A DNA stretch of 57,139 nt, taken from the NCBI GenBank assembly GCA_038059935.1, contig JBBTIN010000043.1:1-57139 (forward strand), given 5' to 3'. The stretch is from Nitrospirota bacterium. Its GTDB lineage: Bacteria; Nitrospirota; Nitrospiria; SBBL01; SBBA01. Positions within the stretch are counted from its first letter, which is position 1. Each line of letters opens with the position of its first letter. Positions 35,471 to 39,067 of the stretch are shown here, in pieces. The notes beneath the pieces are model-generated. The model ran no database searches, had not been told where the DNA came from, and saw only the letters and a program-made list of their open reading frames with translations. The translations under genes were made by a program, and so were the position numbers.

Positions 35471-35487
35471 AGCGAAAATCATGCCAA
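35471..35487 (-). promoter_or_regulatory. candidate sigma-54 promoter (copy 1)
   Basis: The minus strand reads TTGGCATG-attt-TCGCT, compared with the consensus TGGCACG-N4-TTGCW. Spacing is correct with 2 mismatches. It forms the promoter-proximal end of the duplicated regulatory module. Confidence 0.55.
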
Positions 35488-35648
35488 CTTGAAGAACACA
35501 CCAATTTTTATAAGAATAAAACGCGTAATCCCATTTATTGATAAGGGAATAATTTATTTTATTTTTTTATGAGAGAGAAAAACGAAGACGATTTTATTCT
35601 AAAACAAAATCAAATTAGAAGATAAAAAATACAAACTAGAACAGATAA

Positions 35649-35662
35649 GATACGATCGTATC
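35649..35662. promoter_or_regulatory. perfect 14-bp palindrome, candidate enhancer (UAS) or operator
   Basis: GATACGATCGTATC, centred about 171 bp upstream of the -24 element. Conserved in copy 2 as GATACGGTCGTATC. Confidence 0.5.
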
Positions 35663-35724
35663 AAAACAGATAATATGTGGGGGCATCTAACAACCGACTG
35701 CGTGACCAAACTATTAGGACGATT

Positions 35725-36624
35725 TCAGGTGCGCTTGAGTCGCTGGAATGGATTGCCTATCAATCTAAAGCGTTGCCAGTTCAAAGTGACATCCGGGTTA
35801 CTTATTTTTTTAATTTTGTCATTCATGCTAAATAACAATTGATCCACCCTGAAGCACCCGCGCATTGAGACACTTTCCATCAATGCGTTTGCAATGATTT
35901 CCAGTGGCTTGATTTGAAGCGATTCACACGCGGCAATGCTGGTACATGCCCGACCAGAGGTTGTCCATTGTAATCCAAAAGGGATTGAATCTTTTTTGTC
36001 GGCTTTAAGGCCACTGCATGAAAACGAAAAAAGAACGCCGACCGGATGACTTTGTTCTGTTTCCTCCATATGATGAAAACGAAATCCCCTGTATCCAGAC
36101 CATCCGCGACTTCTTCCATGCCCCACATAAATGGCCAACGCGCATCCCTTGCTTAGCTTCTGCGCCAACTCGGTATTCGTCGTGGTATCGGGCAGATATT
36201 TGAACGTCTCTTTGCCGAGACATTTTTCTTTTTTGAAACAGGCGTAGAATTGATTGGCCCATCTCATATAAAGCGGCTTCATCATTCCGAGGATAAAAAC
36301 TTTTTTGGACGGACTGTTTGAATAATCATTCAACGCACGATGCCAGTTAAAAAGTTCATGATCATTTTTGTAAAAAACGAGAGAAAGAAGCCAGTGATCA
36401 ATAAACAGGCCGGGGAACTCGGAAGGATTCCTCTGTTTCCTGTTTACAAAAAAAATCAATCTTCCTTTTTTTGTTTCGCATTTATTTTTCTGAAGCAGAG
36501 CAATTATTTTTTTCTTTTCAGTCGGGATTGTTTTGACGATCAGCCATTGATCAAAAGAAATATGGGGAGAGAGCGTCTCCCCAATTTTATCTTTGATGAC
36601 TTGTGTGGAAACAACCACCACCAT
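35725..36624 (-). CDS. clan CD cysteine peptidase-like protein (gingipain/C25-like His-Cys dyad)
   Basis: 299 aa from ATG 36624 (SD AGAGG, 12 nt after the upstream stop). A hydrophobic strand plus His-Gly (CALAIYVGHGRSRGW) is followed 34 residues later by a hydrophobic strand plus Cys (VGVLFSFSCSG). Confidence 0.55.
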   Translation of the reverse strand: MVVVVSTQVIKDKIGETLSPHISFDQWLIVKTIPTEKKKIIALLQKNKCETKKGRLIFFVNRKQRNPSEFPGLFIDHWLLSLVFYKNDHELFNWHRALNDYSNSPSKKVFILGMMKPLYMRWANQFYACFKKEKCLGKETFKYLPDTTTNTELAQKLSKGCALAIYVGHGRSRGWSGYRGFRFHHMEETEQSHPVGVLFSFSCSGLKADKKDSIPFGLQWTTSGRACTSIAACESLQIKPLEIIANALMESVSMRGCFRVDQLLFSMNDKIKKISNPDVTLNWQRFRLIGNPFQRLKRT

Positions 36625-36636
36625 CAGCAATGGCCT

Positions 36637-38781
36637 CTAGGCGTTAAATACGACCTGTTGGTAAGGGTCCCATGCCGTTGCATCGGGCGTTACCGTAACT
36701 CCAGCTTGATCCGTGATGACCAGTTGTGTCCTCACGAACCAATGCATCATGATTTGTCCTTGTTGTTCAGGATTAAAGGCATCAAAATTTTCGTTTTGTG
36801 CAATGAGTGCCGCGTCACCACCCTCACCCATTATAGAACCTAAGGCTGTATAATTGTTAACGCTTCCATCATGCCGGTCTTGAATATTCAGTGAATTTGT
36901 TGTGTTGACATTTCCAGAATTGTATCCATAATTATATCCACTCCCTGCGACCTGTGCCATAATCGCTTCCGCCATATAGATACCGCCGATTTCCCTGCTC
37001 TGCCAGACATGGGTCAGCTCATGGATTAGCGTGGGCCGATCAATGTCGCCATCATCCATATCAAAGTTGATCAAGTTGGAGGTGACAAACGCCCTTGAAG
37101 TGGGGTTGCCTGTAAAGAAGTCCTGTATGCCAAAAATAATTTCATTCAGTGGATCTTCGGTTGAAAGGAAAATTAAATCATAATCAAGGCTGTTTCCAAA
37201 AACCGTTTGGGCATCGGCAATCTCTTCGGAACGCAGGGATCGGAAAGAGCCTAACAAATTGAATAAGGCGGCAATCACGTTGGCAAGCGCAGCGGCACTA
37301 ACGCGCAACACCGCCTCAAGAATATCCAACACGGCTTGTCCAATTTCCAACGCCGCTTCGATGACTTCATCCAGAAATTCTTCGGCCGTCTCAATAATTA
37401 CGGCTTCAAATAAATCATCAAGAGTCTGCCCGATTTCCTGTAAACCTTGTAAAAATGTATTGAGCGCATTTGCCGGGTTTGTAACCACCTCAACCAGCAT
37501 TTGCCCAATGGTTGCCCCGACATCGAGCGCGGCCCGAATAATCTCTCCGCATATTTCAATCGTCTGGTCTATCGCCCACCCAATAATTCCCGCAATGGCC
37601 ATTCCCGCATCCAATAGTCCTCGCGTAAAATCAAAAATAAACTGAACACCGCTTGTCGTTAAAAAATTATACACATAATAAATGGAATTGCCGATGGTGA
37701 CAGTCACCTCTCCAATCACTTTCCAGACAGCAGCTCCAGCAGTGAGCGCCCACTCATAGAGCGTAATTAAATCCTCTCCGATCTCCTCCCATGCCCGCAC
37801 AATGGCCTCAAACACCATGTCTGTTTGTTTGGCCATCCAGTCTAAGACTTCCAACAAACTTGCTTTGGCATAACGAAGGGTCTGCAATGTTCTTCTCCAT
37901 AATTCACTGGTCGCGTTCTCCACCTGTGTCAATATAAAATCTAACACGTCACCAATCGGTCCAAGATTTCTAATAATTCCGTTTATGAATCTTCGGAATA
38001 CCCAGTAGGATTCGGAGACCACGGTTTCCAAAAGTTCGGCAATCGCAAAACCGACGGCAAAAGCCGCCTCAATAAATGTTGAAACCGCGTTGTATGTCCA
38101 GTCAAACACGGCTCCTACAAATTCAATTAATGCGGTTCCGGCCTCTTTTAACGCAGCCAACAAATTACCTATTTGCTCTGCGGTCCAAGAAACAACTTCT
38201 TCAAACAGATCCACAATCGCGGCGCCAGCAGTGGTAATGGCATCAATGATGGCATCAATGGATTCTAAAATGGCATCCACGCCGTCTTCTATCGTGTCGA
38301 CAACCCACTCTGCGGCATCGCCAAGCGCGTCCACTAATATTTCGGCCGTATCCGAAGGTTTGACATTATGTTTTCGTAGCACTTTTCCGGCAAGTTGTAA
38401 CCAAACAGCAACATCATTGACCGTGCCGCCGGAGTCGAGCAGGTCTTTCATACAGGCACGCACATTTTTCTTTTTCAGGCCGGACATGTTTTGTATCACG
38501 AATAAGGAACCTGCCCTTCCTGTTCCTTCAATGATCGCGCTAAATACTTTTTTTCTGGAAGCGGGTACCATCTTTACGGTCTCATCAAAAAGTTGTTTTC
38601 CTTCGGTAATAAATTGTTTTTTTGTTTTTTGAGTCGCGAGCAGTCCACGCGTATAGTGATAAGCGGCCTTGGGTGATTGCCGGTTGGCCAGATTAAGATA
38701 TTGGCCGATTTGATTCCCGGATAGTTTCATTTTCCTAATTTGAGCACCCATTGATTCAACGTCGTTGGTTAGAGAAATCAA
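36637..38781 (-). CDS. large helical-repeat protein with a C-terminal HExxH zincin-like domain
   Basis: 714-aa ORF. Residues about 150-520 are Ala/Ile/Leu/Val/Glu/Asp-rich predicted helices with recurring Trp. The C-terminal region has RPTLIHELTHVWQ (HExxH). No N-terminal signal peptide. The start is ambiguous: TTG 38781 or ATG 38751. Confidence 0.7.
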   Translation of the reverse strand: MISLTNDVESMGAQIRKMKLSGNQIGQYLNLANRQSPKAAYHYTRGLLATQKTKKQFITEGKQLFDETVKMVPASRKKVFSAIIEGTGRAGSLFVIQNMSGLKKKNVRACMKDLLDSGGTVNDVAVWLQLAGKVLRKHNVKPSDTAEILVDALGDAAEWVVDTIEDGVDAILESIDAIIDAITTAGAAIVDLFEEVVSWTAEQIGNLLAALKEAGTALIEFVGAVFDWTYNAVSTFIEAAFAVGFAIAELLETVVSESYWVFRRFINGIIRNLGPIGDVLDFILTQVENATSELWRRTLQTLRYAKASLLEVLDWMAKQTDMVFEAIVRAWEEIGEDLITLYEWALTAGAAVWKVIGEVTVTIGNSIYYVYNFLTTSGVQFIFDFTRGLLDAGMAIAGIIGWAIDQTIEICGEIIRAALDVGATIGQMLVEVVTNPANALNTFLQGLQEIGQTLDDLFEAVIIETAEEFLDEVIEAALEIGQAVLDILEAVLRVSAAALANVIAALFNLLGSFRSLRSEEIADAQTVFGNSLDYDLIFLSTEDPLNEIIFGIQDFFTGNPTSRAFVTSNLINFDMDDGDIDRPTLIHELTHVWQSREIGGIYMAEAIMAQVAGSGYNYGYNSGNVNTTNSLNIQDRHDGSVNNYTALGSIMGEGGDAALIAQNENFDAFNPEQQGQIMMHWFVRTQLVITDQAGVTVTPDATAWDPYQQVVFNA

Positions 38782-38878
38782 TCGTTTGTTTTGTAGGATT
38801 TAAACATTTCATTTTTATTTCCTTTCTTTATGTAAAGAGAACTGCAACCATCATTAACCAGCACTGCACGATAACTAC

Positions 38879-38895
38879 AGCAAAAATCATGTCAA
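38879..38895 (-). promoter_or_regulatory. candidate promoter (copy 2): degenerate sigma-54 box or sigma-70 -35
   Basis: The minus strand reads TTGACATG-attt-TTGCT. The -12 TTGC is perfect but the -24 GG is GA. Alternatively, TTGACA-N16-TATCGT reads as a sigma-70 promoter. Confidence 0.4.
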
Positions 38896-39038
38896 CTTTA
38901 TGAACACACCAATCTTTATGAAAATTAAACGCGTAATCTCATTTATTGATGATGGAATAATTTATTTTAGATTTTTTTATGAGAGAGAAAAACGAAGATG
39001 ATTTTATTCTAAAAATAAAACAAAATGAGAACAGATCA

Positions 39039-39052
39039 GATACGGTCGTATC
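39039..39052. promoter_or_regulatory. near-palindrome, copy 2 of the candidate UAS/operator
   Basis: GATACGGTCGTATC, with one mismatch from perfect dyad symmetry, centred about 153 bp upstream of the copy 2 -24 position. Confidence 0.45.
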
Positions 39053-39067
39053 GGAACGGATAATATT

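What the first reader, a model, noticed from the sequence alone, without database searches (positions are those of the whole stretch)
35471..39066. A roughly 200-bp regulatory module is duplicated; its ends coincide with a palindrome and a -24/-12 box
- **Alignment:** 35471-35676 and 38879-39066 align over their full length. They share a central 43-nt block that is nearly identical, and copy 1 has about 18 extra bp.
- **Boundaries:** on the coding (minus) strand, similarity starts a few nt upstream of a 14-bp palindrome (GATACGATCGTATC in copy 1, GATACGGTCGTATC in copy 2). It ends exactly at TTGGCATGATTTTCGCT (copy 1) or TTGACATGATTTTTGCT (copy 2). The transcribed leaders downstream are unrelated.
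- **Architecture:** a dyad site 150-170 bp upstream, an AT-rich tract with a conserved ATCAATAAATG (IHF-like with one mismatch), then a -24/-12 element. This is the classic layout of enhancer-dependent sigma-54 promoters.
- **Caveats:** copy 2 has GA instead of GG at -24 and can also be read as a sigma-70 promoter (TTGACA-N16-TATCGT). No enhancer-binding protein gene is in the window.
Basis: partly seen in the sequence, partly recalled or inferred. Interest (0 to 1): 0.72.

Follow-up and report, generated by a model that had tools for sequence, protein, structure and literature searches.

The report
Reused promoter region heading two operons
A roughly 190-205 bp AT-rich stretch of upstream control DNA occurs twice in a small accessory gene island of an uncultured Nitrospirota bacterium, directly ahead of two unrelated operons, which is an ordinary case of promoter reuse; one copy carries a good sigma-54-type promoter box and the other a damaged one.

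Summary
The duplication is real. Window 35463-35676 and 38871-39066 (sense strand is minus) are 87.5% identical, and a 43-nt block differs at one base. Each copy ends 59-68 nt before the start codon of an unrelated operon.

It is not a structured RNA, has no Rfam match, has no terminal inverted repeats, and is not a convincing terminator. Only one further copy was found. It lies in a 95%-identical version of the island on another metagenome contig (L005), which holds the copy-1 equivalent only.

The sigma-54 reading is partly supported.
- **For:** copy 1 and L005 carry TGGCATGATTTTCGCT. The lineage clearly uses such promoters, because a -24/-12 box sits 36-65 nt before flgF in the window and in 7 of 7 Nitrospirota relatives.
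- **Against:** copy 2 has GA at -24 and reads instead as TTGACA-16-TATCGT. In L005 both the IHF-like site and the palindrome are mutated. There is a single dyad and no activator gene nearby. Homologous cassettes in other phyla have neither the module nor a -24/-12 box.

It meets the published definition of a "putative mobile promoter". I rate it a new member of a known kind, of modest interest.

The parts
35463..35676 (-). Module copy 1. It lies upstream of the operon for the 138-aa Cys-rich protein, the 91-aa protein and the Lipase_3 protein.
   Evidence: Alignment. The orthologous copy is at L005 6329-6515. GC content is 26%.
38871..39066 (-). Module copy 2. It fills the space from just after the proC stop codon to the leader of the 714/724-aa gene.
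   Evidence: It is absent from L005, where an unrelated 155 bp precede the same gene.
35649..35662 (.). 14-bp palindrome GATACGATCGTATC in copy 1. Its centre is 170 nt upstream of the GG. It is flanked by a 12-nt direct repeat, ATATTATCTGTT / ATCTTATCTGTT.
39039..39052 (.). Palindrome in copy 2, GATACGACCGTATC on the sense strand. Its centre is 152 nt upstream of the GA.
35561..35603 (-). Most conserved 43-nt block, copy 1 (TTTAGAATAAAATCGTCTTCGTTTTTCTCTCTCATAAAAAAAT). It lies about 80-120 nt upstream of the GG.
38971..39013 (-). The same 43-nt block in copy 2, with one substitution.
35532..35542 (-). IHF-like ATCAATAAATG in copy 1. It has one mismatch to WATCAANNNNTTR, and the first A is G in L005.
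38940..38950 (-). IHF-like ATCAATAAATG in copy 2.
35471..35486 (-). Candidate sigma-54 -24/-12 element TGGCATGATTTTCGCT in copy 1. The C of the GC lies 59 nt before ATG 35413.
   Evidence: It is identical in L005.
38879..38894 (-). The equivalent element in copy 2, TGACATGATTTTTGCT. The -24 GG has become GA and the -12 region is TTGC.
38868..38895 (-). Alternative sigma-70-type reading of copy 2: TTGACA, 16 nt, TATCGT (10 of 12).
   Evidence: Copy 1 has no comparable pair.
35431..35459 (-). 13-bp hairpin in the copy-1 leader. It begins about where a sigma-54 transcript would start.
   Evidence: -24.9 kcal/mol, z = -3.8. It is identical in L005.
36637..38811 (-). Gene downstream of copy 2: a 724-aa-family protein with a VgrG2b-like metallopeptidase C-terminal domain. 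It carries a 1-nt insertion frameshift near 38770 in this window.
35725..36624 (-). Second gene of that operon, a Peptidase_C25-like protein.
   Evidence: The pair is conserved in L002-L005.
34997..35413 (-). Gene downstream of copy 1: a 138-aa cysteine-rich protein with no known family.
34735..35010 (-). 91-aa partner protein. It pairs with the Cys-rich protein in other phyla, where the gene order is reversed.
33760..34593 (-). Class-3 lipase, the last gene of the island. It converges on flgL.

Best explanation
The repeat is a reused upstream regulatory region, consisting of a core promoter plus about 170 bp of AT-rich control DNA. It heads two adjacent, unrelated operons in a roughly 5.3 kb low-GC accessory island of a Nitrospirota genome.

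**The operons.** One encodes a metallopeptidase-effector-like protein and a C25-like peptidase. The other encodes a Cys-rich protein, a small partner protein and a lipase. The two gene cassettes occur separately in other phyla with other upstream DNA, so the shared module is a local addition. I infer that it puts both operons under the same host control.

**The promoter.** The core promoter at the 3' end is most likely sigma-54-type in copy 1 (TGGCATG-N4-TCGCT). Transcription would then start about 12 nt downstream, at the foot of a stable 5' hairpin. An unidentified activator would bind upstream, at the GATACG-N2-CGTATC dyad and/or the 43-nt invariant block.

**Copy 2.** It has lost the -24 GG through a G/A difference that also creates a perfect TTGACA. 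It is therefore either a decaying sigma-54 promoter, in front of a gene that is itself frameshifted, or it now works as a sigma-70 promoter.

**Shown and inferred.** Shown: the duplication, its position, the promoter-like motifs, use of sigma-54 promoters in the lineage, and the absence of RNA structure or transposon ends. Inferred: that the module drives transcription, which sigma factor is used, and what the dyad and the block do.
For: - **Position:** both copies end 59-68 nt before the start codons, in sense orientation.
- **Unrelated genes:** the downstream proteins are not homologous.
- **Not RNA or a terminator:** whole-module RNA folds are no better than shuffles (z = 0.0 and 0.2). Rfam gives nothing on the module. 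The palindrome forms only a 5-bp hairpin, with z = 0.3-0.7.
- **Not a transposon:** there are no terminal inverted repeats.
- **Sigma-54 signal:** the copy-1 box scores 10 of 12 with GG/GC intact. The window has 7 such hits against 2.5 +/- 1.5 in shuffles, and only two are intergenic and in sense orientation. The other is the flgF promoter, whose box is conserved in 7 of 7 Nitrospirota relatives. The lineage motif matches only these two sites.
- **Conservation:** the box and the leader are identical in L005.
- **Local addition:** the homologous cassettes in L002-L004, L007, L011, L014 and L120 have neither the module nor a -24/-12 box.
- **Known category:** the pair meets the published criteria for putative mobile promoters (PMC3575422), with 83% identity over 120 ungapped nt.
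Against: - Copy 2 lacks the GG.
- Copy 1 has C at -14, where all 8 Nitrospirota flgF boxes have T.
- In L005 the palindrome (C to T) and the IHF-like site (A to G) are both hit, so selection on them is not evident.
- Between the window and L005 the module is more diverged (92% identity) than its flanks. The perfect conservation of the box lies inside a 760-nt stretch with only 4 differences, so it carries little weight.
- There is only one dyad per copy, whereas activators usually use two or more sites (my own knowledge).
- No activator gene lies nearby.
- Only three copies are known, so there is no statistical power for footprinting.
- There are no expression data.
Confidence: 0.55

Rival explanations
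1. Both copies are sigma-70 promoters. TTGGCA/TTGACA is the -35 hexamer. The AT-rich upstream DNA acts as an UP element or curved DNA. The dyad is an operator for an ordinary helix-turn-helix regulator. The resemblance to a -24/-12 box is a coincidence.
For: - Copy 2 reads TTGACA-16-TATCGT, 10 of 12.
- Sequence similarity continues through the position of that -10 hexamer.
- The 14-bp palindrome is typical of dimeric repressors or activators (my own knowledge).
- A single dyad about 150-170 bp upstream of the box, with no activator gene nearby, fits sigma-54 poorly.
Against: - Copy 1 and L005 have only TATTCG at the 16-nt spacing, with no T at the last position. No sigma-70 pair passes the scan there.
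- Sigma-70-like matches in this region are at chance frequency, 14 found against 13.6 expected.
- An operator roughly 150 bp or more upstream of the -35 hexamer is unusual.
Confidence: 0.22
2. The repeat is non-functional or selfish DNA: a small non-autonomous mobile element, a recombination scar or an island junction repeat. It lands in intergenic DNA, and its promoter-like motifs are incidental.
For: - The copies flank the widely mobile 724-aa + C25 cassette as direct repeats.
- The island lies in different genomic contexts in the window and in L005.
- The module is not better conserved than its neighbours.
- The reuse category is known to include such elements.
Against: - There are no terminal inverted repeats and no obvious target-site duplications.
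- No integrase or transposase lies in the island.
- The repeats are 12.5% diverged, unlike fresh att sites.
- Both copies keep the same orientation and distance to a start codon.
Confidence: 0.13
3. The module is transcribed and acts as RNA. It would be a long conserved 5' UTR or intercistronic element, starting from a weak sigma-70 promoter whose -10 hexamer (TAGAAT/TAAAAT) opens the 43-nt block, or read through from the upstream genes.
For: - A TTCTAA/TTCTCA-18/19-TAAAAT pair is the only sigma-70-like candidate conserved in position in all three copies.
- There is no terminator between the upstream genes and the modules.
- The change in the L005 palindrome would keep a G-U pair.
Against: - Folding is no better than shuffled sequence.
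- There is no Rfam match on the module.
- The candidate promoter scores only 8-9 of 12 in 26%-GC DNA, where such matches are common.
- The 18-21 nt indels fall inside the would-be promoter.
Confidence: 0.08

Closest known systems
Putative mobile promoters, or promoter reuse (Matus-Garcia, Nijveen and van Passel 2012; PMC3575422)
   Same: A highly similar upstream sequence sits in front of non-homologous genes in one genome. It occurs as a pair, as most reported families do. It resembles no known IS element or RNA family.
   Different: Here the two copies are only 3.4 kb apart inside one accessory island. The similar stretch is long, about 190 bp, and reaches to the core promoter. A sister contig shows one operon with the module and the other without it.
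Enhancer-dependent sigma-54 promoters (for example Pseudomonas putida Pu, glnAp2, nifH; consensus TGGCACG-N4-TTGCW)
   Same: Copy 1 has GG-N10-GC and matches 10 of 12 consensus positions. AT-rich DNA and a dyad lie upstream. The genes served encode secreted-looking hydrolases, and the host lineage has conserved -24/-12 boxes at flgF.
   Different: Copy 2 has GA at -24. There is a single dyad, about 150-170 bp upstream of the -24 position. The IHF-like site is imperfect and mutated in L005. No activator has been identified and nothing has been tested experimentally.
Correia, ERIC or REPIN-type intergenic repeats that carry promoters
   Same: They are short AT-rich intergenic repeats that can supply promoters and IHF sites to neighbouring genes.
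   Different: This module has no terminal inverted repeats and no hairpin-forming ends. Only 2 copies are seen in 57 kb, and both have a fixed orientation relative to the downstream gene.

Membership tests
Sigma-54-dependent promoter | GG at -24 and GC at -12, separated by 10 nt | tested here: inconclusive
   Met in copy 1 and in L005 (TGGCATGATTTTCGCT). Not met in copy 2 (TGACATGATTTTTGCT)..
Sigma-54-dependent promoter | Good match to the extended consensus, and better than chance | tested here: met
   Copy 1 scores 10 of 12. The window has 7 hits at that level against 2.5 +/- 1.5 in shuffles. The lineage-style motif hits only flgF and copy 1, against 0.5 expected; that motif was relaxed after seeing copy 1. 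There is a mismatch at -14, where 8 of 8 flgF boxes have T.
Sigma-54-dependent promoter | The host uses sigma-54 holoenzyme | tested here: met
   The evidence is indirect. A -24/-12 box lies 36-65 nt before flgF in the window and in 7 of 7 Nitrospirota relatives. The rpoN gene itself was not seen.
Sigma-54-dependent promoter | Upstream activator sites and a cognate AAA+ enhancer-binding protein | tested here: inconclusive
   There is one dyad per copy, 150-170 nt upstream of the GG. It is broken in L005 and absent elsewhere in the window. No Sigma54_activat protein is encoded in the window or in L005. The rest of the genome was not available.
Sigma-54-dependent promoter | rpoN-dependent transcription starting about 12 nt downstream of the GC | not testable with these tools
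   This needs 5'-end mapping and genetics or in vitro transcription.
IHF binding site | WATCAANNNNTTR between the activator site and the core promoter | tested here: inconclusive
   Both window copies have one mismatch (TATCAATAAATGG). L005 has two mismatches, with the core ATCAA changed to GTCAA.
Putative mobile promoter (PMP) | At least 80% identity over at least 50 nt within about -150 to -50 of the start codons | tested here: met
   35463-35582 against 38871-38990 gives 83% identity over 120 ungapped nt. These stretches lie at -50 to -169 and -60 to -179.
Putative mobile promoter (PMP) | The downstream coding sequences are not paralogous | tested here: met
   BLASTP of the 138-aa protein against the 724-aa protein gives a best E-value of 0.2.
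MITE or Correia-like element | Terminal inverted repeats, target-site duplication and many genomic copies | tested here: not met
   There are no terminal inverted repeats, only AT-rich internal matches. There are two copies in 57 kb. Genome-wide copy number could not be tested.
Intrinsic terminator | Stable GC-rich hairpin followed by a U tract | tested here: not met
   The palindrome folds as 5 bp plus a 4-nt loop. The local minimum free energies are -7.2 and -7.7 kcal/mol, no better than shuffles. The terminator scan did not call it.
Known RNA family | Match to an Rfam covariance model | tested here: not met
   There are no hits at gathering threshold. At E <= 1 the only hit in 35380-39120 is a chance snoRNA match outside the module.

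The most novel reading that the evidence does not exclude
The module may be a portable enhancer-plus-promoter cassette that this Nitrospirota lineage copies in front of newly acquired foreign gene cassettes, so as to connect them to one activator's regulon. The two paralogous copies would then record a switch between sigma factors by a single transition, TTGGCA (sigma-54 -24 element) to or from TTGACA (sigma-70 -35 hexamer), on an otherwise shared control region.
Probability: 0.12. Interest if true: 0.6.

Novelty: new member of a known kind. Interest (0 to 1): 0.3.

Why it matters
If the module is active, it is a clean natural example of how horizontally acquired cassettes get wired into host regulation by copying a whole upstream control region. 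The same cassettes have quite different upstream DNA in Bacteroidota, Acidobacteriota and Actinomycetota. The pair also offers a ready-made test of how far a -24 GG-to-GA change, and a simultaneous gain of TTGACA, shifts a promoter between sigma-54 and sigma-70. Beyond that, it is an ordinary promoter duplication in an uncultured organism. It opens no long-standing question.

Tried and rejected
**Searches for further copies**
- The 30-mer and 22-mer of the core block and the 26-nt promoter-proximal block found nothing in GTDB species genomes, JGI metagenome contigs or viral contigs. L005 holds the 22-mer and was still not found, so these collections are incomplete and the negatives are weak.
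- BLAST of the module against plasmids and phages gave no match.
- Cluster look-ups show the island proteins only on the window contig and on L005.

**Regulon search**
- The pattern GATACGNNCGTATC-N135-165-TGGCAYG-N4-TYGC found one hit, in an unrelated GC-rich Planctomycetota contig (L006). I estimate this to be about chance level.

**Empty-site comparison**
- FlgL found no relatives.
- ProC found 24 relatives, but none keeps the window's neighbouring genes or has module-like DNA.

**Alternative readings of the module**
- Structured RNA, riboswitch or sRNA: rejected.
- Intrinsic terminator: rejected.
- MITE: there are no terminal inverted repeats.
- Integron attC or att site: I rejected this because there is no extended imperfect palindrome, no integrase, and the repeats are 12.5% diverged.
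- Small ORF on the + strand (MREKNEDDFILK...): the indel changes its length from 18 to 60 aa and there is no ribosome-binding site, so I rejected it.
- Fur-box-like reading of the dyad: the spacing is wrong (GATA-N6-TATC against N5). This rests on my own knowledge and I did not pursue it.

**Island proteins**
- The defence-system library gave no hits for the island proteins.

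
Full report
**Observation**

On the minus strand, which is the sense strand of all the genes concerned, window 35676-35463 and 39066-38871 align end to end. 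Over the module columns there are 161 matches, 23 mismatches and 22 gap columns, or 87.5% identity. A 43-nt block (35561-35603 and 38971-39013) differs at one base and never appears in shuffled sequence. There are exactly two copies in the window.

Two points need correcting. Similarity fades over 8-13 nt beyond GCT rather than stopping there. The gene after copy 2 starts at ATG 38811, not at 38781. The 18-aa ORF MKCLNPTKQTIDFS... is the N-terminus of the 724-aa family, and a 1-nt insertion (window AACC, L005 ATC) separates it from the rest of the protein.

**Context**

The contig comes from an uncultured Nitrospirota bacterium. The best RNase G, ProC and FlgF relatives are Nitrospirota, Troglogloeales and Manganitrophaceae MAGs.

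The minus-strand gene order runs as follows:
- proC
- module copy 2
- the 714/724-aa gene
- the C25-like peptidase gene
- module copy 1
- the 138-aa Cys-rich gene
- the 91-aa gene
- the class-3 lipase gene, which converges on flgL

This 34-40 kb stretch has 43-45% GC against 46-49% on either side.

The C-terminal domain of the 724-aa protein resembles the VgrG2b metallopeptidase effector domain (PDB 6h56, E = 1e-4). It also gives a sub-threshold eCIS_core hit.

Both gene pairs are cassettes that occur in other phyla. The 724-aa + C25 pair is found in Bacteroidota-type contexts. The Cys-rich + small-protein pair is found in Acidobacteriota and Actinomycetota with the gene order reversed. None of those loci has the module or a -24/-12 box upstream. 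The shared module is therefore a local feature of this lineage and does not travel with either cassette.

**The only other copy**

A JGI contig, L005, carries the island at 95% identity, from the ribosome-binding site of an intact 724-aa gene to the middle of the lipase gene, in a different genomic neighbourhood. It has the copy-1 equivalent. It has no copy 2: 155 unrelated bp precede its 724-aa gene.

Substitution counts are 5 unique to window copy 1, 8 unique to L005 and 17 unique to copy 2. This suggests that the duplication is older than the split between the window and L005. So L005 either lost copy 2 in a rearrangement, or copy 2 came from an unseen third paralogue. The 45-55 nt of unique leader after copy 2 fit the second possibility.

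In L005 a 21-bp deletion shortens the distance from the dyad to the box to 150 nt, against 170 nt in copy 1 and 152 nt in copy 2. The palindrome is broken there (GATACGACTGTATC) and the IHF-like ATCAA has become GTCAA.

Between the window and L005 the module is 92% identical, which is less than its flanks. The perfect conservation of the box and leader lies inside a 760-nt stretch with only 4 differences. Comparison with L005 therefore gives no evidence of special constraint on the box.

**What the module is not**

- **Structured RNA:** whole-module folds are no better than shuffles (z = 0.0 and 0.2), and Rfam gives nothing on the module.
- **Intrinsic terminator:** the palindrome forms only a 5-bp hairpin, and the terminator scan did not call it.
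- **Transposon-like element:** there are no terminal inverted repeats and no integrase or transposase in the island.
- **Assembly artefact:** the copies differ at 12.5% of aligned positions.

**Sigma-54 or sigma-70**

Copy 1 matches TGGCACG-N4-TTGCW at 10 of 12 positions with GG-N10-GC intact. The window has 7 such hits against 2.5 +/- 1.5 in shuffles. Only two of them are intergenic and in sense orientation: copy 1, and a site 64 nt before flgF that follows a strong terminator.

That flgF box is a good positive control. All seven Nitrospirota relatives have TGG(C/T)ATG-N4-TTGC(T/A), or a close variant, 36-65 nt before flgF. The lineage therefore uses sigma-54 promoters of just this flavour.

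The lineage-style motif GGYATS-N4-TYGCW matches only flgF and copy 1 in the window, against 0.5 expected. I relaxed position -14 to Y after seeing copy 1.

A sigma-54 start about 12 nt after the GC would place the 5' end at the foot of a stable leader hairpin (35431-35459, z = -3.8). This is a plausible mRNA-stabilising arrangement, and that reading is my inference.

Several points count against sigma-54:
- Copy 1 has C at -14, where all eight flgF boxes have T.
- Copy 2 has GA at -24, although its -12 region is a perfect TTGC.
- There is one dyad per copy and none elsewhere in the window.
- No activator gene lies in the window or beside the L005 island.

Copy 2 reads well as TTGACA-16-TATCGT. 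Copy 1 has no acceptable sigma-70 pair at that position. Sigma-70-like matches in the region are at chance frequency overall. The one sigma-70-like pair conserved in position in all three copies (TTCTAA-18-TAAAAT, opening the 43-nt block) is weak and sits in 26%-GC DNA.

**Conclusion**

The best-supported reading is promoter reuse. A whole upstream control region has been duplicated and heads two unrelated operons of secreted-looking hydrolases. The pair meets the operational definition of putative mobile promoters: at least 80% identity over at least 50 nt upstream of non-paralogous genes, with no IS or RNA match (PMC3575422).

It is not established, and it is doubtful for copy 2. Copy 2 may be decaying together with its frameshifted gene, or it may have shifted to sigma-70. 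The roles of the dyad, the 43-nt block and the ATCAA motif remain inferred.

The genome-wide copy number, which would separate a small regulon from a mobile element, could not be obtained. The rest of the MAG is not in the searchable collections, and the collection scans that returned nothing are known to be incomplete.

Noticed in passing
window 24971-24986 (+); L040-L045 and L051 upstream of flgF: A sigma-54 -24/-12 box (CTGGCATcactaTTGCT) lies 64 nt before the flgF start, after a strong terminator. An equivalent box lies 36-65 nt before flgF in 7 of 7 Nitrospirota relatives, so the flagellar rod operon appears to be sigma-54-dependent across this class.
   Followed up: yes
window about 38766-38772 (within 36637-38811, minus strand): A 1-nt insertion (AACC against ATC in L005) frameshifts the 724-aa-family gene after codon 14. 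The gene is either a pseudogene or carries an assembly error. Gene callers report truncated 697-704 aa products.
   Followed up: partly
window 35431-35459 (-): A 13-bp perfect-stem hairpin (UAUAUCGGCGAGA...UCUUGCCGAUAUA) lies in the leader of the 138-aa gene. Its free energy is -24.9 kcal/mol with z = -3.8. It is identical in L005 and absent from the copy-2 leader.
   Followed up: partly
window 3093-3148, 49145-49200, 56114-56169: A 56-nt GC-rich repeat family with internal palindromes has three copies at 70-100% identity. Each copy abuts the 3' end of a minus-strand gene. It looks like a REP or terminator-type intergenic repeat.
   Followed up: no
window 36637-38811; PDB 6h56: The C-terminal domain of the 724-aa protein (HELTH motif) matches the metallopeptidase effector domain of the Pseudomonas aeruginosa T6SS spike protein VgrG2b (E = 1e-4). 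The protein is always followed by a C25-like peptidase, and the pair occurs at 60-80% identity across Bacteroidota and other contigs. No function is known for this widespread two-gene cassette.
   Followed up: partly
window 34735-35413; L007, L011, L014: The 138-aa Cys-rich protein and the 91-aa protein form a conserved pair in Acidobacteriota (inserted inside a trp operon), Actinomycetota and other taxa, with the gene order reversed relative to the window. They match no Pfam, NCBIfam or PDB entry.
   Followed up: partly
window 39170-39185 (-): TGGCACGACCATTGCC matches the sigma-54 consensus at 11 of 12 positions but lies inside the proC coding sequence, where it encodes the GGTTIAG motif. It is about 105 nt upstream of module copy 2 and is probably a coding coincidence.
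   Followed up: no
window 16475-16558: Two tandem 42-nt units at 79% identity lie inside a 363-aa ORF (16059-17150) that has no Pfam family.
   Followed up: no
window 20511-21478 (-): Two adjacent CcmE-domain genes (153 aa and 169 aa) lie in the cytochrome c maturation cluster. The second is a weak match.
   Followed up: no
L006 3205-3389: A Planctomycetota MAG intergenic region has GATACGCCCGTATC followed by TGGCACGGGGGTTGC (a good sigma-54 box) before a gene. It is unrelated in sequence to the module, and I took it as a chance match to the search pattern.
   Followed up: partly
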